Below are positions 2,607 through 49,478 of a stretch of 64,000 bases of DNA, piece after piece. Position 1 is the stretch's first letter. Each line of letters starts with the position of its first letter. The stretch spans positions 55,969-119,968 of the forward strand of contig JBHLRZ010000006.1 of the NCBI GenBank assembly GCA_048882045.1. Reading direction: 5' to 3'. Source of the stretch: Candidatus Thorarchaeota archaeon (GTDB lineage Archaea; Asgardarchaeota; Thorarchaeia; Thorarchaeales; Thorarchaeaceae). A program made the translations under genes and the position numbers. The notes under the pieces were generated by a model that was given only the letters and a program-made list of their open reading frames with translations, was not told the origin of the DNA and did not search any database.

Positions 2607-4724
2607 ATGACTAGTACTGATAAGAAAAAGAAGAACCGATTATCGAAAGAGAAGAGTCCGTACCTCCTGCAGCATGAAGACAATCCAGTGGACTGGTACC
2701 CCTGGGGAGAGGAGGCATTCGACAAGGCAAAGAAGGAGGACAAACCAGTGTTTCTTTCGATAGGCTACAGTACTTGTCACTGGTGTCATGTGATGGCACA
2801 TGAGTCGTTTGAAGACGATGAGGTTGCCATTTTAATGAATGAGGTGTTTGTCAACATAAAGGTTGACAGAGAGGAACGACCTGACATCGATGGCGTTTAC
2901 ATGGAGGTCGCCCAGATGATCACCGGTAGGGGCGGCTGGCCTCTTACCATAATCATGACTCCAGATAAACAACCATTCTTCGCTGGAACATACATCCCAA
3001 AAGAGAGCAGATACAGCAGTCTAGGGATGAAGGAACTCATCCCACGAATCAAGGAGATATGGGAGAGTGACCGGGACAACATCAATGAAACCACCAGTCG
3101 AATCAAGGACGCTCTTTCAGAAACAAGATATGCAGGAGAGAAGGAGGACCTATCATTAGACTCAGTTGACCTTGCTTTTTCCCATCTCTCTCAAAGATTT
3201 GATGAGAAACAGGGTGGGTTCGGGTCAGCGCCTAAGTTTCCATCACCTCACAACTTGATGTTAATACTCAGGTACTGGAAGAGGACAGGTGATGAGTGGG
3301 CTCTCTTCATGGTGGAGAAGACGCTCCAGGCAATGAGGAACGGAGGAATCTTTGATCATATTGGTTTCGGATTCCATCGGTATTCCACCGATGAGAAATG
3401 GTTGCTACCACACTTCGAGAAAATGCTATACGATCAAGCCAGTCTCATGATGGCTTATACTGAAGTATATCAAATCACGAAAAAACAGGAATACGCCGAC
3501 ATTGTCCGAGAGATCTTCGAATATGTGACTCGAGACTTGACAGGCCCCGAAGGAGCATTTTATTCAGCTGAAGACGCAGATTCAGAAGGGGAGGAAGGCA
3601 AGTTCTACACATGGACAAAGAGTGAGATAGAGGATATAATCAATGATAAGAATGAAGCTTCAATATTCATGCAGGCCTTCAATATCCATGAGGAAGGAAA
3701 CTTCGAAGACGAAGCGACTCGAGAAATGAACGGGCTGAATATTCCTCACCTCAAAGAAAAGGCTGACTTAGATACAGACCTGGGGATAACTAGGGAAGAA
3801 CTGAAACTACTGCTTGATAAAATCAAGACAAACATGTTCGTCCGTAGAGAGATGCGAGTCAGACCTAGTCTTGATGACAAGATATTGACTGACTGGAATG
3901 GATTCATGATTGCTGCACTCTCCAAGGCTGGAGCCATACTAGGAGATGCAAAGTTCATAGAAACTTCAGAAAGAGCACTCAAGTTCATTCTTGATACTAT
4001 GCTCGATGATGAACGTCGACTCTATCATAGATACAAGGATGGAGAGATAATCATCCAGGCATTTCTCGATGATTATGCGTATCTAGTCTGGGCACTCTTG
4101 GAAACTTATGAAGCCACTTTCAAGCCAGAGTACTTAGAACAGGCAATAGACCTGACGTTAGACATGCTGGAACATTTCTGGGATGAAGAGGAAGGGGGTC
4201 TGTATTTCACTGGTACATATTCAGAGGATCTTCTAGTCAGAAAGAAGGACGTCTACGATGGGGCAATGCCTTCTGGAAATTCAGTGGCTGCTCTCAACCT
4301 GATACGCCTCGCTCGGTTCCTTGGTGATACAAAACTGGAAGAAAAGGCTGCTGAAACTGTACGAGCATTTTCAGGCATCGTTCCTCGAGCGTACTCAGGT
4401 TTCACTATGTTGTTGACCGCAGTGGAGTTCGCTTATGGCGACTCCTACGAAATTGTGATTGCTGGTAATCCTGATTCAGAAGACACACAGGAGATGATCA
4501 GAGCAGTCCGTGACCAATTCATACCCAATCGAGTCATTCTCCTGAAGGGAACAGAACACCAATCAAAAGAGGTGTCTCAGCTTGCTCCCTATACCAAATT
4601 CCATGATACTGTTGGAGGTAAGGCAACAGCACATGTCTGTATCGACTATAACTGTAAGCTTCCAACAAATGATGTAGCGCAACTACTGAAGCTCATCGGA
4701 GTTACTGAGATGGCTTCTTCTTGA
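2607..4724 (+). CDS. thioredoxin-domain protein, YyaL/SSP411 (SPATA20) family
   Basis: [35 protein letters not shown]. Confidence 0.95.
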
Positions 4725-6186
4725 CCCACCAGAATGTCACAATCACAAGTGCTGCAACTCCAGCTCCAACGAAAGCGATTATAGGTCCATACACCTGCAG
4801 GATTCCACTTGGCCAAATTTGATCAAGTGCCTCTCCTGCCGCCTGCCATGAATCAGCAATGGTCAACAGCTTTTGACTGATGTCAGTCAGATCCGATTCG
4901 TAGGGTGATAATGAGGCATCAAGATCACCAGAGGCGTTGTAGGAATCTGCAATCCCTCGAAAAGTAGACGCAACATATCCATTTGCTTGTGTTAGATTTC
5001 CAGGATAGATGAGAGTTGAGTTGTCTGCGATTGCATCAAATGCTGGTAAGGCTGCCTCACCCGCTATGATGAAATCTGTGAGGTCAGTATCAGGCATCAG
5101 TGATGGGAGTGCATAGAGAGCTGTTCTGAATGAAAGATATTGTAGTGTTACCTGTGCCTCCACACCAAGACCGATGGTATAGAGAAGGGCTGCTTTGAAT
5201 CTTACTTCGTCTTCAACTCCATCAAAGAGACTGAGGTATGATTTCAATCCTTCAGAAGTGAGACCTGTACTAAGCCCGCTGAATCCATTATACCCGAATT
5301 GACCAACATAGGCATTTACTGATGTTGGGAAGTAAATCGTTCCGACACCGAGTAGCTTGTCCCTGATCATTGGTCCCAGCTGACTGTCTATAGAAGCCAC
5401 TGGTGTAGTGAGAGGCAAGAAAGTACTCGCAATGTAGTAACGAGCTGACCAAGCATCAAGCAAGAGTGTATACGAGATTGTCGTGTAGTTCCCTCGACCA
5501 TCTGAAGGATATCCATAGTTGTCCCCAAATGACCCCACACCTGGATCTATGATAGTTGCTAGATTGGCTGTGTCATTGTATCCGACTACAAGAATTCCAT
5601 GAGCACCACCAGTAAGTCCTTGATCACGAAGGTAATCGTAATCGGAGGAGGGTAGAAACATTGGATTGACACTGATCAGAAGGGGATATCCACTGTCAAC
5701 TGTTTGGCGCATAAAGTCCATCGCATGAGTCTGCCCATCAATGAGTCCGATGTTAATTCCTTGACTGTCGTAGACTTGGACCATCTGTTCAAGATCAGGG
5801 ATGTCGGTCCCCAGATATTGAGTATAGTTCACTCCATAGAGGTTAGCAAGGAAGTGTGTTGGTTCTACCTGCGTAAGTAATGCTCCTGGGAAAACAAGAA
5901 ACGTGTCATCGAACCGGAAATATGCGAATGAGAATCCTATTGTCGACAATGCAAAGACATCGTAGAGGTTGAGATCAACTCCTGCGTATTGCATAGCTAT
6001 TGCGGTAGCGGCCCATGCGCAGAAACCATTGATCTCCTGCCAAACATAGTCCCGAGGTTCCAGAAGAGCATCAGTGGATGATGTGATTGTAGGTTCATGT
6101 ATAGTAACTCCTTGAACACTGATAGGAATTAATAGAATCAAGAGGAGTGTGAGGACTGCAATAGAAGAGGAATTCAATCGGGACAT
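4702..6186 (-). CDS. secreted, C-terminally anchored papain-like (C39-like) cysteine peptidase-domain protein
   Basis: signal peptide; [22 protein letters not shown] and IIDPG; C-terminal TM followed by KKKP. Confidence 0.7.
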
Positions 6187-41520: not shown

Positions 41521-42744
41521 TCATATCCCGCCATAGAACAGTAGTATGTACAGCATCATGATAAAGACCGCAATCATGGAGACTGACTCAAGCGCATTGA
41601 TCTTTGCGTCATCAGTTATCATTGCTCTTAATATGAACATGGTGGGGAAGGCAAACAGTAGGAGTACAACTGAATAGAGCTCTATAGGTAGTATCTCATG
41701 ACCTAACAAGATAGGATCAAAATATCCTGCAAGACCAGATACAATCATAGTAAATCCAAAAATGACAAAGAACACCTGGACAATGCCGCCAAACGCATTA
41801 CTCAGCGCTACCTCTATCTCTTCCTTTCTGTGACTACTAGCCACGATGATGTACTCAGGAGTGCCACCAAATATCACGAGTAACAGTGCGGCATGGATGA
41901 TGGGTAGACCAATTTCATCAATAGCGAAGTTGGCGAAAGACGAGAGTGCATGACCGCCGAGAGCTGCACCAAGAGAGGCAAAGAACAGATAGACTCCAAG
42001 ATTCTTCCAGGACATGGCGTCATGTACAACATGCTCATCCAAGAGCGGATCGGATGAAGTTGGATCAATTTTCCCATAGTACCTTGTGATTCGATAGAGG
42101 TAAGCAACAAAGACAATCATGAGACAGAATCCAAAGAGTATCAACTCTCCGGAGTCAAGATATTGGGAGATTAATTCATTTCCAGGGGTCAATGGAAATA
42201 GATGCACAAGCATCATTGATAGACCGACTGAAAGTGAGATTACTGAACCCATTGTCAATAAATCCGATCCAACATGATGAATTGCGTCAGGAAGTCGAAA
42301 ATTACCTTCATGATCCTTTGGCAATACAAGTGTATAGAGGGCAAATACAAGACTGTTCATGAAAATGGTAGCGAGGGCTAGAATCCAAGCCATCTCATAT
42401 TGCCTACCAACAATGAGAAAGAGAAGTACAAATAGCTCTGGAATTGTGCTTGCCAGACTTGCATAGATACCAGCAACATAGTCAGTAAGTTGCATGTTGT
42501 GTGCCAGACCTTCAACAGATAGGACAAAGGCTTCACAGGCACCACCAATCAGAAGTACACCACCAACCAGTTCGATTGCAGCTTTAATGGATTCATCCAT
42601 ATGAAAACCGATAAAATCAAGGAGAAGCAATCCGACAACAATGAGAAAGCCAATCACATACGCGAGCTGCCATATGTGGTACTTACGCTCTTGTCCTTTG
42701 GGTTTCACATGGGTTTCACCAGATGTGATGACTTCATCCTGCAT
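41521..42744 (-). CDS. Ca2+/cation antiporter (CaCA family)
   Basis: alpha-repeats ASTIPEL and GGTPEY; about 11 TM. Confidence 0.8.
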   Translation of the reverse strand: MQDEVITSGETHVKPKGQERKYHIWQLAYVIGFLIVVGLLLLDFIGFHMDESIKAAIELVGGVLLIGGACEAFVLSVEGLAHNMQLTDYVAGIYASLASTIPELFVLLFLIVGRQYEMAWILALATIFMNSLVFALYTLVLPKDHEGNFRLPDAIHHVGSDLLTMGSVISLSVGLSMMLVHLFPLTPGNELISQYLDSGELILFGFCLMIVFVAYLYRITRYYGKIDPTSSDPLLDEHVVHDAMSWKNLGVYLFFASLGAALGGHALSSFANFAIDEIGLPIIHAALLLVIFGGTPEYIIVASSHRKEEIEVALSNAFGGIVQVFFVIFGFTMIVSGLAGYFDPILLGHEILPIELYSVVLLLFAFPTMFILRAMITDDAKINALESVSMIAVFIMMLYILLFYGGI

Positions 42745-43431: not shown

Positions 43432-43497
43432 AAAGCCTTGTCGTTTGAGTGATAAACCTCAAGTAGAGCTGTGCGAGTGTCAAATTGGCGAGATTCG

Positions 43498-44022
43498 ATG
43501 GTGAACTATTATCATGATGTCCCTCCTGGACCTAATCCCCCAAGTGAGATCTATGTGATCGTTGAACTCACTCGCGCTAGCAAGAACAAGTATGAGTATG
43601 ATCCTGAGTTAAACCTCTTCAAACTCGACCGGGTCCTCTATACATTTGCTCCATTCGACTACGGATTCATTCCCCAAACACTTGACCAGGATGGAGACCC
43701 TCTGGACGTTATCTTACTAATAACACAGCCTACTTTCACATCGTGCATGGTACATGCTAGACCCATCGGTGTGATGGAGATGGATGATGTTGGCAGAATT
43801 GACGATAAGATAATCGCAGTACCGATGAACGAGCCATATTATCGAGACGTCAACAGCATCATCGATGTCCCGGTGAGTCAAATCAATGAGCTTCGTCACT
43901 TCTATTCAACATACAAGATACAGGAAGGCGGTCATGTAGAGATCAAGAATTTCCGGGAGCTCAATGATGCCTACCAAACTATTAATCGGTGTCTTGACGA
44001 TTACAAGAAAGCTCAATCCTAG
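43498..44022 (+). CDS. ppa: family I inorganic pyrophosphatase
   Basis: KYEYD, LDRVL, YGFIPQT..DGDPLD, DDKII. Confidence 0.93.
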   Translation: MVNYYHDVPPGPNPPSEIYVIVELTRASKNKYEYDPELNLFKLDRVLYTFAPFDYGFIPQTLDQDGDPLDVILLITQPTFTSCMVHARPIGVMEMDDVGRIDDKIIAVPMNEPYYRDVNSIIDVPVSQINELRHFYSTYKIQEGGHVEIKNFRELNDAYQTINRCLDDYKKAQS

Positions 44023-44037
44023 GCATGAGATGGTTTC

Positions 44038-44709
44038 ATGAAAGAACTGGTTTTTTGCAAGGCAGTTGTATTCGATTTCGACGGGACACTGGCTGACAGT
44101 ATGCCTTTCCTACAACGGATCGGTGTGGAAATCATGATGAAACACTATGGTGTTTCGAAGGATGATGCCACTGAGAGGTATGTAACAACCACTGGTCTCC
44201 CTTATGAACATCAGATAAAGATGAATTTCCCTGATGATCCCAGAAACGAAGCTGCTATCGAGGAATTCGAGCAGCTCAAGATTGAGAGAATCTTCGAGCA
44301 AGAACTGTTTCCAAATGCAGAATGGGTTGTTCAAGAACTTAACAAGAGAGGATTTGATGTGTTTGTTTCATCCTCGACCTTCCAACCAACAATAGAGGAG
44401 TATTTCCGGAGACTAGGTATCATCGACCTTTTCATAGAGATTGTTGGATATCGACCCGGCTTTGAGAAGGGAGCGGACCATTTCAAGCATATTAGCTCAA
44501 AACACAACATCAATTTCGACGACATGGTTTTTGTTGGAGACTCTATCAAGGACTACGAGCGGTCCAAAGACTTCTGCAAGTTTATTGCTGTGGTTGGTCT
44601 GTTCGGTTCAAAAGACTTCTACAAAGCTGGACATCGCGGTCACATTATTCAACCACTTACTCAACTCCTCGAAATTGTTGAGAATGATTACCTTGATGTG
44701 AATTTGTAA
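44038..44709 (+). CDS. HAD-family hydrolase
   Basis: FDFDGTLADS, VSSS, K, FVGDS..D. Confidence 0.9.
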   Translation: MKELVFCKAVVFDFDGTLADSMPFLQRIGVEIMMKHYGVSKDDATERYVTTTGLPYEHQIKMNFPDDPRNEAAIEEFEQLKIERIFEQELFPNAEWVVQELNKRGFDVFVSSSTFQPTIEEYFRRLGIIDLFIEIVGYRPGFEKGADHFKHISSKHNINFDDMVFVGDSIKDYERSKDFCKFIAVVGLFGSKDFYKAGHRGHIIQPLTQLLEIVENDYLDVNL

Positions 44710-44799
44710 TCGGATTCGAAAGGTCTGAAATATTCAAACCGTTCTAGAAACAAGAAATTTTTATCCGAATTATGGATTCTCTTATCAGGAGAGGGAATA

Positions 44800-45723
44800 G
44801 TGTCTACCAAAAGACTGAAAGTGTGCACAATCGCGATTTTGCTCTTTGTAGGGGGAATTATCCCTCAGATTCCTTTATCCAAGGCTGACTTAACATCCTG
44901 GGTTGAGATAGAATTGGGGGGAACAATGACAAACAGCTCCCAATTATCGATGCCTGTTGCAGATGTGATAATACGAATACAAGAAGGTGTCAATGGTGTT
45001 ACTGCAAATGTATCATGTCTATTCGAGGTAGTATCAGATATCAGTATCAATACATCACTAGCATTTGTTTATCCTTTCCTTTGGCATTCTTTCTATTCTT
45101 ACGATCCATTAAACCAATTCGCAGTTCTCAACTTCTCTGTTCATGTTAACGATTTGGAGGTGAATCACACAATAATTTCATGGGACAACCTCACATCATA
45201 CGGTTTTAATGCTGACCAAAACATGTATCGATATCTCTGGTTGACGACCTCAAATTTCGTTCTCTTCTCATTCGAGATGGAAGAGTCAGAAAAGTATAAT
45301 ATCAGTGTTCAAACAAGTGCGTTCCCTGTGTTTAACGCACATGATGGTCGTTTTCGGTATGTTGTTGGAAGTGCTGAAACATTCTCTGGAGAGACTCATC
45401 AAACAGTGAACATTATTGTAGATCATGGAGTAGCGTATGAGGAATTGACGTTCCTCCCAGAAACGTACCTAGTAGAATCAATGAATGCTTCAGGTAGGTA
45501 TGCTGTATGGGAATTTTCTATTTTCGAATCTGCTCCAATTTCCTACGTAGGATTCGATGTCAAAATAGCTAACTACACTCAATCCCACAGCCCACTACCT
45601 CGCCCTTCAACAACTACGCCAAATGAGATTCACAGTCTTGTTTCGAATGGACTGCTTCTATTTATCGCAGTTTCGATAGGAGTTGTGATTCTTCTGATAG
45701 GAAACGATCGAAGGACAAAATAG
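44800..45723 (+). CDS. secreted, C-terminally anchored cell-surface protein (cargo X)
   Basis: signal peptide, beta-rich body, Pro/Thr linker, C-terminal TM followed by RRTK. Confidence 0.75.
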   Translation: MSTKRLKVCTIAILLFVGGIIPQIPLSKADLTSWVEIELGGTMTNSSQLSMPVADVIIRIQEGVNGVTANVSCLFEVVSDISINTSLAFVYPFLWHSFYSYDPLNQFAVLNFSVHVNDLEVNHTIISWDNLTSYGFNADQNMYRYLWLTTSNFVLFSFEMEESEKYNISVQTSAFPVFNAHDGRFRYVVGSAETFSGETHQTVNIIVDHGVAYEELTFLPETYLVESMNASGRYAVWEFSIFESAPISYVGFDVKIANYTQSHSPLPRPSTTTPNEIHSLVSNGLLLFIAVSIGVVILLIGNDRRTK

Positions 45724-45746
45724 ATCATGCTAGATAGGATTACTCT

Positions 45747-45896
45747 TCAGGCAGTTTGTTCAGCAGCTTTTGGTGGTCCTTGACCAAGAACCTTGTTCAT
45801 TCGCTCGAGAATCTCACGTATGTGTGGAACAGATGGTTCAGGGAATGTGACAATGTTTTCCTCTGGAAGGTTCTCCAGCACGTTCAGAATTTTCTC
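45747..45896 (-). pseudogene. nadA: diverged duplicate of the last 49 codons plus stop of nadA
   Basis: 46/49 aa identical to 48501-48650; about 31/150 nt differ by hand count, nearly all synonymous. Confidence 0.92.
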
Positions 45897-46170
45897 GTCG
45901 GCTATCGACCTGGATTCGAGAAAGGAGGAGACCAGTTCAATCATATCAGTAAACAACACAACATCCACTTTGATGACATGTTGGTTGTTAGATTCCATAA
46001 AAGACTATGAGAGGTCAAAGGGTTTTTACAAGTTTGTACCGCTTCTTGGAATGTTCAGTTCACAAGACTTCTACAAAGCTGGACATCGTGGTCACAGAAT
46101 CGATGTATTAGGGCAGCTCCTCGACTTTGTCGAAAATGATTACCTTGATGAGGAGTTTGGAATAGATTAA
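45897..46170 (+). pseudogene. diverged, frameshifted duplicate of the 3' part of the HAD gene
   Basis: VGYRPGFEKG...VENDYLD matches 44443-44709 (about 61/85 aa); 2-nt deletion in the V-G-D codons near 45990. Confidence 0.92.
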
Positions 46171-48437
46171 TGGTGCTCTGAAGCTTCGGAATTGGATTCG
46201 TAGATCCACAGAACAACTGCGAAACCAAGTATAAGAAATGTCAATAGTGGAAAAGGTGTCCAAGTATACCACACAATATATGGACTGTTAAGTCTGATCC
46301 AGCCTATCCAATTGAGAACGAGTATACCGGGAATCATTACAACAATGGAGATGATACCTCCAATGAGAACCCAAAACATACTCCTTCGGTGGTTAATTCT
46401 TTCCCACAACCAAAATAGATTCAATGTACTGAATGCAGTATATGGTACTCCTACAAGTAGAGCAGAAATGGCTTGGATGGAATAGTACGTGTAAATATCG
46501 GGCAATAGAGCTAGTAGTTGAAGTGGGAAACCAAAAAATTCTGAATCAGGTTGGCCAAACCAAGCATGCATATGTCTAATACCAATCAAACAAGGGACCA
46601 GCATAGAAACGAGTAGAAGAGTGAAAAATCGGCTATCAAAGAATATTGAATCATCTTGAATCTTGGGTTTCTCTTCATTCATACCTTCCTTCAAAGACTC
46701 GAAGGTTTTGAAATCTCGTTCAAGCATATTGAAGTGTTCACCAAAAACATAGTATCCTTTCTTGCTATATACTGCAACAAACATAAGCCAAGTAATTGGA
46801 ATCCCCAAGAGTAACAATGGTTCAAACAACGGAGATATGGGTTCACTGGTGATACTAGCTAGTAGAGGTTGAACTAGGAATGGATAGATAACTGGAACGA
46901 ACAACACTAGACCCATAGTGAGATCTGTTTGGCGATTTGATGGTGTTGAACATGTTACTATGCACCAGATGATTGGAAGCCAATAGAGTATAATTGCCCA
47001 AAATGACCAAGTCAAGGCTTCGCTTGGAATCTTCAACAGACACTGACTTCCTTCTGTCCATAGACCCATTATCGGTAATGGTCCAGCAAGACTACTGTGA
47101 ATTACAACAACTTTGTCTTGCCAAAGTGATTCGAAAAGGCGAGTTGATGAGAACCAAGGGAATAGGGCTAGAACAGAAAAAAGCAGAGGAGGAATCATGC
47201 GGAAATCGAGTTTCAACCTAGTCTTATGCAATCTCTGAACTTTGTTCATCCATACTCCTATTCGCGAGATAATTAACACAAACATTACTAGAGAGAGTGC
47301 GGCATATCCCAAGTCCCATATCTGTAGGATAGTTATTGCTTCTCTAAATTCAACGAATATCTCTAGGTTGTGAGTCCCATTTGATTGAATATAACCAGCA
47401 ACACTTGCTACAGATGTCAGTCGCCACGATCCCAGTCTATCATCTAGAAGATCTGCAATGTAAAAACTGCCATAGGCATTTCTAGGAGGTACTATAAAAA
47501 CACAAGGTAGTGATTCTGAGGTTAGATGTAGGTCATATATCTCATCATCATTTGATTTCTCACTCCAAACAATATGATACACTGGATACACTGAGTCAAA
47601 TGTTATCTCGACTCGGACAGCTCTTAGATGCACAATCATGATTGTTCGTTCATTTTCTGAGAAACTGATGCTGAAATTCACTTCATGGTAATAGTATTGA
47701 TAACTCCATCCGCACGTGCCATTCAAGCTCCCTGTCCTAAGGAGAAGCGTATCATTTACAGAACGGGGATAAAAAAGAGTGGTTGACTCACTCCAGTTAT
47801 CTCTCGACACATATAGAGCCGGAGTTACCCACATCATTTCACTCATCCATTTGTTATCGTACAGGCTAAGTCCTTCAGTGGATTTTAGGTCAAAAGAAAC
47901 TGGACATAGTGGAACACTTGAACTGACTGAAACTATCAAACTGTGGCAAATCAGATTGTCCCTTGGAGTAACATAGACTACACTATCGACTAACCAACGA
48001 TCAGAACTGTTTTTCGTAAAAGCTAAGTCAGTCTGCAAAGTCATAGTTGTCAATTCTGAAACAAATTGAGTAGTTTCTATGTTCTCACCAGATAGGTGCA
48101 AGCCGAAATCAACTTCTTTACCTTCAGTAGTAGATTCCAAAGTTACGTTGAGAAAAATCAGGTCATAATCGAATCGTGGCAAGTTAAAATAGTGATAACC
48201 ATCAAATGGTGTAAGATTGAGAATAACAGCATTGTTCACAGAAGATTGGGGTTCATAATACAATGAATAGTTAGTCGACTGTGGAATGGGAGTTGTTGGT
48301 TTAACGGTATACTCTCCAGTAAGACCTGGCAAAGGATAGGAGAACGTGTAATATGATGAGAGAATCAAGTATCCGACGACTATGATGGACAGTGTTAGAA
48401 GTCGCTCTTTCGAGATTGCGAAAGCATGTCTGTTCAA
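46167..48437 (-). CDS. large membrane protein with extracellular N-terminal region and multi-TM C-terminal half (cargo Y)
   Basis: N-terminal TM, about 340-aa region with many N-x-S/T sequons, about 9 further TM; AT-rich. Confidence 0.75.
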   Translation of the reverse strand: MNRHAFAISKERLLTLSIIVVGYLILSSYYTFSYPLPGLTGEYTVKPTTPIPQSTNYSLYYEPQSSVNNAVILNLTPFDGYHYFNLPRFDYDLIFLNVTLESTTEGKEVDFGLHLSGENIETTQFVSELTTMTLQTDLAFTKNSSDRWLVDSVVYVTPRDNLICHSLIVSVSSSVPLCPVSFDLKSTEGLSLYDNKWMSEMMWVTPALYVSRDNWSESTTLFYPRSVNDTLLLRTGSLNGTCGWSYQYYYHEVNFSISFSENERTIMIVHLRAVRVEITFDSVYPVYHIVWSEKSNDDEIYDLHLTSESLPCVFIVPPRNAYGSFYIADLLDDRLGSWRLTSVASVAGYIQSNGTHNLEIFVEFREAITILQIWDLGYAALSLVMFVLIISRIGVWMNKVQRLHKTRLKLDFRMIPPLLFSVLALFPWFSSTRLFESLWQDKVVVIHSSLAGPLPIMGLWTEGSQCLLKIPSEALTWSFWAIILYWLPIIWCIVTCSTPSNRQTDLTMGLVLFVPVIYPFLVQPLLASITSEPISPLFEPLLLLGIPITWLMFVAVYSKKGYYVFGEHFNMLERDFKTFESLKEGMNEEKPKIQDDSIFFDSRFFTLLLVSMLVPCLIGIRHMHAWFGQPDSEFFGFPLQLLALLPDIYTYYSIQAISALLVGVPYTAFSTLNLFWLWERINHRRSMFWVLIGGIISIVVMIPGILVLNWIGWIRLNSPYIVWYTWTPFPLLTFLILGFAVVLWIYESNSEASEHH

Positions 48438-48500
48438 TAGGAACTCTCCACTCCACTTGGTACTAATGGAGGATATCAGAGATTTAGCCTTTTGCTTTCA

Positions 48501-49478
48501 TTAAGCCGCCTGTTCCGCAGCCTTCGGTGGTCCTTGACCAAGAACTTTGTTCATCCTCTCAAGTATTTCGCGAATGTGTGGCACAAATGGTTCAGGAACC
48601 GTGACGATGTTCTCTTCTGGCAGGTTTTCAAGTACATTGAGAATCTTCTCCAGAGTGTGTTTCTTCATCTGACGACAGACCGCACCATCGAACATCGGAA
48701 TGATCGTCTTGTCTGGATGTTGCTTCTGGAGTTGATGAACGAGACCTAGCTCTGTTGCGATGATGAAAGTCTTTACGTCTGATTCTGCCACCGTCTTGAC
48801 CATCATTCCAGTTGATCCAATCATATCAGCATGTTCTTGGACCTCGATTGGACATTCTGGATGAGCTATTGCAATTGAGTTGGGATATTTCTCTTTAAGC
48901 TCGATCAACATACTGAGATCAAACATGTTATGGACATAGCAGTGGCCTCTATAGTCGATGTCAATGATCTCAACCGGGGTATGCATTCGGACATAATCTG
49001 CCAGATTTGCGTCCGGGCCAAAGATGACCCGATCTACACCAAGTGACTCGACGACCTCAACTGCACTACCAGAGGTACATATCATATCTGCTTCTGACTT
49101 GGCTTCTGCAGTTGTGTTCACATAAACGACGACTGGGACACCAGGAAACTCCTTCTTCTTCTGACGTATCTTCTCAGCATCAAGATAACCAGCGAGTGGA
49201 CACAACGACTTGGTGTCGGGAATGTAAACCGGAATATCAGGGGATAAGACAGCAGCCATTTCAGCCATGAACTTCACTCCTGAGAATATGACCATGTCAT
49301 ACCCTTCGACCTCAGCAGATTTCCTTGCTAACTGAAGAGAGTCACCCACAAAGTCAGCAATCTCCTGAATATCGATTGTCTGATAGTTGTGAGCTAGAAT
49401 GAGAGCCTTCCTCTCTTTTTTCAGCTTGAGTATCTTCTCCTGTAATTCCTTGATGTTACGTTCCACTGTGAACACCAC
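48501..49478 (-). CDS. nadA: quinolinate synthase
   Basis: ILAHNYQ, GDSLQL, GVKFMAE, YVNT, PD.NL, CYVH, AHPEC, GST, TE.G, C..MK. Confidence 0.95.
   Translation of the reverse strand: MVFTVERNIKELQEKILKLKKERKALILAHNYQTIDIQEIADFVGDSLQLARKSAEVEGYDMVIFSGVKFMAEMAAVLSPDIPVYIPDTKSLCPLAGYLDAEKIRQKKKEFPGVPVVVYVNTTAEAKSEADMICTSGSAVEVVESLGVDRVIFGPDANLADYVRMHTPVEIIDIDYRGHCYVHNMFDLSMLIELKEKYPNSIAIAHPECPIEVQEHADMIGSTGMMVKTVAESDVKTFIIATELGLVHQLQKQHPDKTIIPMFDGAVCRQMKKHTLEKILNVLENLPEENIVTVPEPFVPHIREILERMNKVLGQGPPKAAEQAA

What the first reader, a model, noticed from the sequence alone, without database searches (positions are those of the whole stretch)
44038..49478. Tandem [HAD-3' / cargo / nadA-3'] units: scar of additive gene capture at a variable slot
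Seen: the order is HAD(+), cargo X(+), nadA 3' fragment(-), HAD 3' fragment(+), cargo Y(-), nadA(-). The two fragments are fused with no spacer at 45896/45897. The nadA copy is about 79% identical in nucleotides but 46/49 identical in amino acids. The first 10 HAD codons at the junction carry 6 changes, all synonymous. Inference: such synonymous bias cannot come from neutral decay of an in-place duplication, so the copies diverged as functional orthologs in different lineages. A relative's version of the same convergent HAD><nadA slot, carrying a different cargo, appears to have been added rather than swapped. Possible routes are homology-anchored illegitimate recombination or single-crossover integration of a circularised fragment. 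No integrase or transposase is present. This would be an integrase-free, cassette-like way to accumulate surface genes using conserved gene ends as anchors.
Basis: partly seen in the sequence, partly recalled or inferred. Interest (0 to 1): 0.82.

Follow-up and report, generated by a model that had tools for sequence, protein, structure and literature searches.

The report
Double gene-end scar from added cargo
In a Thorarchaeota (Asgard archaeon) genome, a membrane-protein gene from a related lineage was added beside an existing surface-protein gene between two housekeeping genes, leaving two dead gene ends fused back to back; this is a clear natural footprint of integrase-free gene gain by recombination, a pattern that recurs in this genome.

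Summary
The order is HAD(+), X(+), nadA 3' relic(-), HAD 3' relic(+), Y(-), nadA(-), and the two relics abut at 45896/45897.

- **Assembly.** The open reading frame that spans the junction occurs letter for letter on NCBI and Logan contigs, so an assembly chimera is unlikely.
- **Origin of the relics.** Both relics differ from the resident genes mainly at silent sites. For nadA' pS is 0.78 and pN 0.027; for HAD' pS is 0.65 and pN 0.16. They carry few defects. In a tree, HAD' groups with the HAD gene of another lineage (P0001) and not with this genome's own HAD. In-place duplication followed by neutral decay is therefore rejected.
- **The slot in relatives.** Across about 45 related genomes and contigs the slot is empty or holds X, Y, Y+X, a Y remnant or LRR genes. 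G006 and G018 share a roughly 3.5-kb tract that runs from mid-HAD through Y into nadA. This shows cargo exchange by homologous recombination with crossovers inside the two genes.
- **No recombinase.** No integrase or endonuclease gene is present.
- **Best reading.** One homologous crossover plus one illegitimate join (HFIR-like) added [HAD'-Y-nadA end] next to X. Pop-in of a circularised fragment is the main rival.
- **A second case.** An identical double scar lies at ahcY><enolase on contig C1.

This scan has noted similar gene-end relics on other Thorarchaeota DNA before. I rate it a new variant of a known kind, of moderate interest.

The parts
43471..44022 (+). Inorganic pyrophosphatase gene (ppa), conserved left neighbour of the slot
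   Evidence: Pfam PF00719, E 6e-48. Syntenic next to HAD in 17 of the genus genomes examined.
44038..44709 (+). Intact HAD-family hydrolase gene, left anchor of the slot
   Evidence: Pfam HAD_2, E 8.8e-20. Orthologues are 63-79% identical in the genus.
44443..44705 (+). The 3' part of HAD (from codon 135) that is repeated as the HAD' relic
   Evidence: Repeat families D2, D3 and D4, 76-82% identity. Alignment.
44800..45723 (+). Cargo X: a 307-aa protein with an N-terminal hydrophobic signal, a C-terminal membrane anchor and 9 N-x-S/T sequons. Probably a surface glycoprotein.
   Evidence: No Pfam match. Hydropathy and sequon counts. Homologues of 26-43% identity occupy the same slot in G003, G004, G010 and G020.
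45744..45896 (-). nadA' relic: the last 49 codons plus stop of a quinolinate synthase gene, with no 5' part
   Evidence: 79% nucleotide and 46/49 amino-acid identity to nadA. pS 0.78, pN 0.027. It has F at a position where all 24 orthologues have V (alignment).
45896..45897 (.). Junction nadA'|HAD': two gene ends fused tail-inwards with no spacer
   Evidence: Sequence. Homology to nadA stops at 45896. The junction-spanning frame occurs on independent NCBI and Logan contigs.
45897..46170 (+). HAD' relic: codons 135 to stop of a HAD gene from another lineage, frameshifted by a 2-bp deletion at 45990
   Evidence: pS 0.65, pN 0.159. Groups with P0001, support 99/92, and not with the resident HAD. 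H>Q, F>V and C>Y at columns that are invariant in the orthologues (alignment).
46167..48437 (-). Cargo Y: a 756-aa membrane protein. It has an N-terminal anchor, a roughly 350-aa region holding all 9 sequons, then about 6-7 hydrophobic segments.
   Evidence: No Pfam match. Hydropathy. The nearest relatives in 5.8 billion proteins are only 42-45% identical, all Thorarchaeota or unnamed. Homologues occupy the slot in G001, G006, G014, G015, G018 and G023.
48501..49478 (-). Intact quinolinate synthase gene nadA, right anchor of the slot. Its last 150 nt (48498-48650 with the stop) are the partner of the nadA' relic.
   Evidence: Pfam NadA, E 3e-99. Repeat family D1.

Best explanation
The convergent HAD><nadA gap is a replacement-type variable slot for surface or membrane protein genes in a genus of Thorarchaeota.

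**Normal exchange.** Cargo normally moves between lineages by homologous recombination, with crossovers inside the two conserved genes.

**What happened here.** In this genome one exchange went half wrong. DNA from a related lineage (P0001-like) carried [HAD 3' part, Y, nadA ...]. It recombined homologously on the nadA side. On the other side it was joined illegitimately, with no homology, to the recipient's chromosome 150 nt inside the recipient's nadA. This is homology-facilitated illegitimate recombination, or equivalently a one-ended repair finished by end joining.

**Outcome.** Both housekeeping genes stayed whole. The recipient's X was kept and Y was added. The recipient's old nadA end and the donor's HAD end were left as dead fragments fused back to back. 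No integrase or nuclease of its own is involved.

**Shown:** the anatomy, the foreign origin and young age of the relics, the variable slot, and recombination tracts that end inside HAD and nadA.

**Inferred:** which side was homologous, the direction of transfer, and how the DNA entered the cell.
For: - **Anatomy and junction:**
- **Junction in independent assemblies:**
- **Relics diverged under purifying selection:** nadA' pS 0.78 and pN 0.027; HAD' pS 0.65 and pN 0.159. This is the same pattern as true orthologue pairs.
- **Few signs of decay:** one 2-bp deletion and 1+3 changes at invariant residues.
- **HAD' is foreign:** it groups with P0001 from another lineage and not with the resident HAD. 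The 5' part of the resident HAD is not P0001-like (sequences read).
- **Slot alleles:** empty, X, Y, Y+X, Y remnant and LRR.
- **Shared tract:** G006 and G018 share 81-92% identity from mid-HAD through Y to about 700 nt into nadA, within flanks of 61-75%.
- **More breakpoints in HAD:** they are also seen in G008/G015, G016/G020 and G000/L057.
- **Single relic in G014:** G014 has HAD, then a decayed HAD' relic, then Y, with no room for a nadA' relic. This fits a one-sided illegitimate join better than a circle.
- **Second double scar:** it has a 3-nt CCA overlap at its junction.
- **No recombinase:** no PF00589 integrase in the genome and no recombinase or endonuclease domain in slot or island ORFs.
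Against: - The donor itself is unsampled.
- The data cannot separate a one-sided illegitimate join from single-crossover integration of a circularised fragment. Both give the same map.
- At the amino-acid level nadA' is closest to this genome's own nadA (shared tail PPKAAEQ-A). The foreign origin of that relic therefore rests on silent-site divergence alone.
- At the ahcY locus the relic boundaries cluster within about 40 nt across genomes. This hints at a site preference that plain illegitimate recombination does not predict.
- No reads were examined.
Confidence: 0.55

Rival explanations
1. Pop-in of a circle. A linear exchange fragment [HAD 3' part, cargo, nadA 3' part] from a relative was closed into a circle by end joining, which created the nadA'|HAD' joint. 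It then integrated by a single homologous crossover in one of the two short gene-end homologies (Campbell type). This duplicated both gene ends.
For: - It predicts exactly the observed map, with both gene ends present as direct repeats and a spacer-free joint.
- The same map occurs at ahcY><enolase.
- Identical stretches of 25 nt (HAD) and 20 nt (nadA) exist where a crossover could occur (alignments).
- Repeated pop-out and pop-in would explain why the ahcY relics keep nearly the same 5' boundary yet resemble the resident gene in each genome.
Against: - It needs homologous recombination within only 150-270 nt at about 80% identity.
- G014 has a HAD' relic with no room for a nadA' relic. A circle integrated through nadA would have left one.
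- No circle has been observed.
Confidence: 0.25
2. An unrecognised site-directed system, such as a homing-type nuclease (as in yeast WHO elements) or a novel recombinase encoded elsewhere, cuts conserved gene ends and drives replacement of the gene end plus capture of cargo. The scar would be its footprint.
For: - ahcY 3' relics recur in at least 10 genus genomes, sometimes 2-3 per contig. Their 5' boundaries cluster at ahcY nt 1047-1088, and they group with the resident gene, not with each other.
- Both relic boundaries in the window lie at invariant motifs: VGYRPGFEKG in HAD and MKKHTL|EK in nadA.
- WHO elements leave 3' relics of FBA1 that begin at the cut site and a diverged replaced 3' end (PMC7282813).
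- Earlier notes of this scan report many integrase-free gene-end cassette arrays in Thorarchaeota (treated as leads only).
Against: - No endonuclease or recombinase domain was found in any cargo ORF of this slot or in the ahcY islands that were scanned.
- No PF00589 hit in G000, G004, G007 or G009, and none on the ahcY contigs of G015.
- The two known HAD' relics start at different places: nt 403 in G000 and about nt 500 in G014.
- Only 2 of about 45 slot alleles carry any relic.
Confidence: 0.12
3. In-place tandem duplication of [HAD end, cargo, nadA end] within this lineage, followed by divergence and differential loss of cargo.
For: - A tandem duplication gives the same B'|A' novel joint.
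- Y+X alleles exist (G005, G021, L065). From such an allele, a duplication plus two deletions could give X ... Y.
- nadA' is closest in amino acids to the resident nadA.
Against: - Dead copies should drift neutrally, giving dN/dS of at least 0.5 for each pair. The observed values are about 0.03 (pN/pS, nadA') and 0.12 (HAD') with silent sites saturated.
- There are no stops in nadA' and only one indel in HAD'. The truly old G014 relic, by contrast, has 2 stops and 60-66% identity.
- HAD' groups with another lineage's gene.
Confidence: 0.04
4. Assembly chimera of two co-occurring strains, one with X and one with Y.
For: - The genome is a 93-contig metagenome-assembled genome.
- The junction 24-mer is absent from the JGI metagenome contigs.
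Against: - The two sides of the joint share no sequence that could mislead an assembler.
- The relics carry pseudogene defects, so they are not pieces of a working gene from another strain.
- The junction-spanning frame is present on 4 NCBI and 3 Logan contigs.
- A second locus has the same build.
Confidence: 0.04

Closest known systems
Homology-facilitated illegitimate recombination (HFIR) in transformable bacteria (Acinetobacter, S. pneumoniae, P. stutzeri; de Vries & Wackernagel 2002, Prudhomme et al. 2002, Meier & Wackernagel 2003, as cited in PMC5361080 and PMC3240628)
   Same: One homologous anchor plus one join without homology. Foreign DNA is added without any element-encoded enzyme. 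The junction has 0-3 nt of overlap.
   Different: - This is a natural relic in an Asgard archaeon, not a laboratory event.
- Donor and recipient carry alleles of the same slot, so the product looks like a heterologous tandem duplication with two gene-end relics.
- The route of DNA entry is unknown.
Orphan immunity-gene arrays of Vibrio cholerae T6SS clusters and C-terminal displacement in rhs loci (Kirchberger et al. 2017, PMC5361080)
   Same: A new module arrives by recombination in a conserved upstream region. The old module is pushed downstream and kept, together with gene fragments. HFIR is proposed and no integrase is involved. Plain replacement is commoner than addition.
   Different: - There the anchor is one conserved 5' region, and the relics belong to the variable toxin system itself.
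- Here the anchors are two unrelated housekeeping genes in convergent orientation, and both leave relics.
Replacement flexible genomic islands exchanged by homologous recombination (Lopez-Perez et al. 2014, PMC4033161)
   Same: The same chromosomal slot is present in all relatives and carries different genes for exposed structures. The boundaries show altered, mostly synonymous divergence inside the flanking conserved genes.
   Different: - Those islands are usually multi-gene glycosylation clusters and are swapped cleanly.
- Here the unit is one gene, and one allele shows addition with scars.
WHO homing elements at FBA1 of Torulaspora and Lachancea yeasts (Coughlan et al. 2020, PMC7282813)
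   Same: 3' end fragments of a housekeeping gene lie behind the intact gene. The intact gene has a replaced, diverged 3' end. Tandem build-up occurs.
   Different: - WHO units encode the endonuclease, and their relics start at its cut site.
- No nuclease gene is present in this slot, and the two HAD' relic boundaries differ.
Integrative elements that target the 3' end of tRNA or protein genes and restore it (Islander, PMC4383910)
   Same: An intact target gene plus a displaced 3' fragment mark the ends of the inserted DNA.
   Different: There is no integrase, no shared att core beyond chance-length identities, and the inserted unit is a single non-mobile gene.

Membership tests
Homology-facilitated illegitimate recombination product | Inserted DNA is foreign (from another lineage) | tested here: met
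   HAD' groups with P0001 (support 99/92) and outside the resident HAD. Silent sites are saturated and replacement changes few.
Homology-facilitated illegitimate recombination product | One junction lacks homology (0 to a few nt of overlap) | tested here: met
   nadA'|HAD' abut with no spacer and no shared sequence. The twin locus has a 3-nt CCA overlap.
Homology-facilitated illegitimate recombination product | The other end is resolved by homologous recombination in a conserved anchor | tested here: inconclusive
   Crossovers inside HAD and nadA are shown in relatives. No crossover point could be located in G000 itself, because silent sites are saturated against the nearest relative L057.
Campbell-type integration of a circular molecule | The insert is flanked by direct repeats of the recombining homology | tested here: met
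   Both HAD-end and nadA-end copies are direct repeats.
Campbell-type integration of a circular molecule | A circular intermediate exists | not testable with these tools
   This needs reads or outward PCR.
Site-specific integrative element (tyrosine integrase, att sites) | An integrase gene in or beside the insert | tested here: not met
   All ORFs of the slot are accounted for. There is no PF00589 match anywhere in G000, while all 14 control genomes gave matches.
Site-specific integrative element (tyrosine integrase, att sites) | The same insertion point in independent insertions | tested here: not met
   HAD' starts at nt 403 in G000 and at about nt 500 in G014.
WHO-type homing element | The unit encodes a homing endonuclease | tested here: not met
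   Pfam finds no nuclease domain in X, Y, the LRR cargo or the ahcY island ORFs that were scanned.
WHO-type homing element | Relics begin at one position (the cut site) | tested here: inconclusive
   Not so for HAD, with only two relics. The boundaries are clustered for ahcY, at nt 1047-1088.
Replacement flexible genomic island | The same slot in relatives holds different genes | tested here: met
   Empty, X, Y, Y+X, Y remnant and LRR alleles.
Replacement flexible genomic island | Recombination boundaries lie inside the flanking conserved genes | tested here: met
   The G006/G018 tract and the pS steps in HAD for G008/G015, G016/G020 and G000/L057.
Replacement flexible genomic island | The cargo encodes exposed cell-surface structures | tested here: inconclusive
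   Signal or anchor segments and sequons in X and Y and LRR domains in other alleles. This is prediction from sequence only.
Integron | IntI integrase with attI and attC-bounded cassettes | tested here: not met
   No integrase. Apart from the gene-end copies themselves, the other repeats found are short two-copy matches that do not bound the cargo.

The most novel reading that the evidence does not exclude
Thorarchaeota have a general way of capturing and shuffling single-gene cassettes that needs no element-encoded integrase. Conserved gene ends serve as portable recombination anchors. Fragments of the form [gene end, cargo, gene end] pop out and in as circles, or are driven by an as yet unrecognised site-directed nuclease. 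The nadA'|HAD' joint would then be the preserved closing joint of such a circle. This would be an archaeal functional analogue of integrons built on host recombination.
Probability: 0.3. Interest if true: 0.78.

Novelty: new variant of a known kind. Interest (0 to 1): 0.56.

Why it matters
Asgard archaea are the closest known relatives of eukaryotes, yet how they gain genes is almost unknown. They are rarely cultured, and few classical mobile elements have been found in them.

This locus is an unusually legible record of one gain. It shows what the recipient had (X), what came in (Y with a foreign HAD end) and where the DNA was joined. The housekeeping genes stayed intact, and no integrase was needed.

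Together with the tract shared by G006 and G018, it shows that conserved gene ends act as landing pads for cargo exchange between species. It also shows that a failed swap can add a gene instead of replacing one.

The second identical scar and the other gene-end relics in this genome suggest that the process shapes much of the accessory genome of these archaea.

Tried and rejected
- **Donor among sampled species.** I looked for the donor among the 28 species of the genus by DNA search. None is closer to either relic than this genome's own genes, so the donor is unsampled there.
- **Junction in JGI metagenome contigs.** An exact junction 24-mer found nothing.
- **The look-up of encoding contigs.** The contexts of P0001, of the Logan contigs and of Y relatives could not be read.
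- **Crossover point in G000.** I compared HAD and nadA with the nearest lineage, L057, in sliding windows. HAD shows a step from pS about 0.45 to about 0.85 near codon 120. But HAD' is not closer to L057 than the resident end is, so this does not identify a native relic. nadA is too saturated to read.
- **Hidden relics in other alleles.** I searched the Y+X and other alleles by blastx at E up to 1. Only G014 has one.
- **nadA' as an outlier.** I asked whether its near-perfect protein conservation with saturated silent sites is unusual, for example recoding. It is not: the working orthologue in L057 shows the same pattern against nadA (pS 0.84, pN 0.015).
- **ESM Atlas search of Y.** It gave no usable fold or family.
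- **Integrase searches.** A PF00589 search of five genomes, and Pfam scans of 19 ORFs in all at this slot, its neighbours and the ahcY islands, found no recombinase or nuclease.
Full report
**1. What is there**

The window is part of contig C6 of a 93-contig, 3.6-Mb metagenome-assembled genome. Protein names from public sources and a shared SMTZ1 contig place it in Candidatus Thorarchaeota.

The ORF map and Pfam give the following, in order:

- ppa (43471-44022, +)
- a HAD-family hydrolase (44038-44709, +)
- X (44800-45723, +, no family)
- Y (46167-48437, -, no family)
- nadA (48501-49478, -)
- a beta-CASP nuclease and an Arf-like GTPase

Between X and Y lie two gene pieces.

- 45744-45896 (minus strand) repeats the last 49 codons and stop of nadA. 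It is 79% identical in nucleotides and 46/49 in amino acids.
- 45897-46157 (plus strand) repeats HAD from codon 135 to the end at 76-82% identity. A 2-bp deletion at 45990 shifts the frame.

The pieces abut with no spacer. On the nadA side, homology stops at the stop codon and at the joint. The first ten HAD' codons carry six differences, all silent (sequences). The one omission is that HAD' also has about 26 amino-acid changes and a frameshift.

**2. Is it an assembly artefact?**

- The two sides of the joint share no sequence that could mislead an assembler.
- The relics carry pseudogene defects, so they are not pieces of a working gene from a co-occurring strain.
- The 83-aa frame that crosses the joint is on record letter for letter on two Logan contigs. 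Shorter start variants are on one further Logan contig and four NCBI contigs.
- A junction 24-mer was absent from the JGI metagenome contigs.

I put the artefact reading at about 4%.

**3. How the copies diverged**

By Nei-Gojobori counts:

| Pair | Silent sites changed | Replacement sites changed | pS | pN |
|---|---|---|---|---|
| nadA' vs nadA | 27 of 34.5 | 3 of 112.5 | 0.78 | 0.027 |
| HAD' vs HAD | 33.8 of 51.8 | 33.2 of 209.2 | 0.65 | 0.159 |

For HAD' the dN/dS ratio is about 0.12. A dead copy made in place must give a ratio of at least 0.5 for the pair, so in-place duplication with neutral decay is rejected.

The pattern matches real orthologue pairs. Species pairs with saturated silent sites show pN of 0.06-0.2 in this part of nadA and 0.18-0.3 in this part of HAD.

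The nearest lineage found is the metagenome contig L057 (nadA 95%, ppa 95% and HAD 87% amino-acid identity). Against the resident nadA end it gives pS 0.84 and pN 0.015. So the near-perfect protein conservation of nadA' is not odd for this subclade.

The relics have decayed only a little:

- nadA' has F where all 24 orthologues have V.
- HAD' has Q, V and Y at three invariant columns, plus the 2-bp deletion (alignment).

For contrast, the HAD' relic of G014 is 60-66% identical and has two stops. The event in G000 is therefore young relative to the divergence of the two parents.

**4. Whose gene ends are they?**

No species of the genus (28 genomes) has a copy closer in DNA than this genome's own genes. 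A search of 5.8 billion proteins with the HAD' translation found P0001, a partial HAD from a JGI contig. Over the 53-residue search query it is 83% identical, against 72% for the resident HAD. Over the whole 87-residue relic the figures are 79% against 70%.

In a tree of the 3' segment, HAD' and P0001 pair with support 99/92. They sit inside a clade with P0002-P0004 that excludes the resident HAD. The 5' part of the resident HAD is not particularly P0001-like (sequences read). So HAD' is best read as the foreign piece that arrived with Y.

nadA' shares the tail PPKAAEQ-A with the resident nadA only. Its foreign or displaced status therefore rests on silent-site divergence alone.

**5. The slot in relatives**

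I mapped 24 genus genomes and about 20 metagenome contigs.

| Slot content | Where |
|---|---|
| Empty (0-200 nt) | G002, G008, G009, G011, G012, G016, G019, G024, G041, L057 and others |
| X homologue only | G003, G004, G010, G020 |
| Y homologue only | G001, G006, G014, G015, G018, G023 |
| Y then X, no relic | G005, G021, L065 |
| Remnant of Y | G013 |
| LRR proteins | L072, L076 |

The cargo proteins are only 22-45% identical between species, while the flanking genes are 63-87% identical.

X and Y have hydrophobic anchors, and their N-x-S/T sequons lie in the predicted outer parts. "Surface genes" is therefore a fair but unproven label.

G018 (Y) and G019 (empty) are close kin (pS about 0.25). 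G019 is a clean 2.35-kb deletion of Y.

**6. How cargo moves**

G006 and G018 have saturated silent sites in all neighbouring genes. Yet they share a tract of 81-92% nucleotide identity that starts about 275 nt into HAD, runs through Y, and ends about 700 nt into nadA. The flanks are 61-75% identical. This is direct evidence for exchange of [HAD end, cargo, nadA end] by homologous recombination with crossovers inside the two genes.

Steps in pS within HAD are also seen for G008/G015, G016/G020 and G000/L057. This is how replacement flexible genomic islands behave (PMC4033161).

**7. The additive event**

Three routes give the observed map:

- **(a) One-sided illegitimate join.** One homologous crossover on the nadA side, plus an illegitimate join between the donor's HAD (codon 135) and the recipient's nadA (150 nt from its end). 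This is the HFIR type, or a one-ended repair finished by end joining.
- **(b) The mirror image of (a),** with X as the incoming cargo.
- **(c) Circle pop-in.** End joining of a linear exchange fragment into a circle, followed by a single crossover in one short gene-end homology.

I prefer (a), for three reasons:

- HAD' is the piece with foreign affinity.
- The homologous anchor can be long.
- G014 shows HAD, then a HAD' relic within about 30 nt, then Y, with no room for the nadA' relic that a circle integrated through nadA would leave.

The data do not exclude (c).

No enzyme of its own is encoded here. Every ORF in the slot is accounted for. PF00589 finds nothing in the whole genome, although it matched all 14 control genomes. 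Pfam finds no recombinase or nuclease in the cargo.

**8. The same thing elsewhere in the genome**

A self-tblastn of 3,270 ORFs against the genome found a second locus with the same build on contig C1:

- ahcY (+), then a flavin reductase gene (+)
- an enolase-superfamily 3' relic (-) joined to an ahcY 3' relic (+) with a 3-nt CCA overlap
- a TPR gene (-), then the enolase-superfamily gene (-)

The search also found single 3' relics behind three other genes, on C18, C56 and C12. All five relics outside the window, like the two at this locus, have pS well above pN.

ahcY 3' relics recur in at least ten genus genomes. Their 5' boundaries cluster at nt 1047-1088. In a tree they group with the resident gene and not with one another. 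This clustering is not explained by plain illegitimate joining. It keeps alive two ideas: repeated pop-out and pop-in of relic-bounded units, and an unrecognised site-directed enzyme.

Earlier notes of this scan describe many such integrase-free gene-end arrays in Thorarchaeota, including the same ahcY scar. I used them only as leads. So this kind of structure was found before on other DNA.

**9. Comparison with known systems**

- **HFIR.** The mechanism is closest to HFIR as described in bacteria, and to the displacement arrays of Vibrio T6SS and rhs loci, where HFIR was proposed (PMC5361080).
- **Replacement flexible genomic island.** The slot itself behaves like one.
- **WHO homing elements.** They share the relic-behind-gene picture but encode their nuclease. 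That defining feature was tested here and not met.
- **Integrative elements and integrons.** They fail on the integrase test.

**10. Verdict**

The structure is real. Addition is a rare by-product of ordinary cassette swapping at this slot. The process is also not limited to surface genes.

I rate it a new variant of a known kind. It is of moderate interest in itself, and of higher interest as one clear instance of a genome-wide pattern in Asgard archaea.

Noticed in passing
G000 contig C1:189641-194274 (locus L137:4642-9275): A second back-to-back double scar. The order is ahcY(+), flavin reductase(+), enolase-superfamily 3' relic(-) at C1:191741-191965, ahcY 3' relic(+) at 191963-192176 with a 3-nt CCA overlap, TPR gene(-), enolase-superfamily gene(-). 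Both relics are about 80% identical to the intact genes, each has one indel, and pS is well above pN.
   Followed up: yes
Loci L141-L150 (G004, G007, G015, G042, G016, G010, G012, G020, G021): The region behind ahcY is a hypervariable island across the genus. It holds one to three extra copies of the last ~70 codons of ahcY. Their 5' boundaries cluster at ahcY nt 1047-1088. The copies resemble the resident gene of each genome. No integrase was found on these contigs.
   Followed up: partly
All have mainly silent differences (pS 0.45-0.62, pN 0.085-0.16).
   Followed up: partly
L033 (G014) between HAD and Y, first ~170 nt after the HAD stop: An old, decayed HAD 3' relic (60-66% identity, two stops) lies directly behind the intact HAD and before Y. 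In protein comparison it is nearest to the HAD of the Y-bearing G006/G019 group.
   Followed up: yes
L038 (G006) 2628-5801: In G006 a 1057-aa ORF (minus strand) is inserted between ppa and HAD. This gap is only 15-120 nt in the other genomes, so it may be a second variable slot one gene to the left.
   Followed up: no
whole genome G000: No match to the tyrosine recombinase family PF00589 anywhere in this 93%-complete genome, nor in G004, G007 or G009, although all 14 control genomes gave matches. Even a XerA-type gene was not detected with this model.
   Followed up: no
window 41521-42744 (Na/Ca exchanger gene) compared with relatives: This gene is 84% identical to G002 and G009 but only 64-78% to the other genus members. 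nadA and the beta-CASP gene on the other side of the slot are nearest to G004, G014 and G012. The neighbourhood is a mosaic of recombined segments.
   Followed up: no
L037 (G019) 69-nt HAD-nadA spacer compared with L035 (G018): The empty allele of G019 is a clean deletion of the 2.35-kb Y gene from a G018-like allele. It keeps 6 nt on the left and 63 nt on the right.
   Followed up: yes
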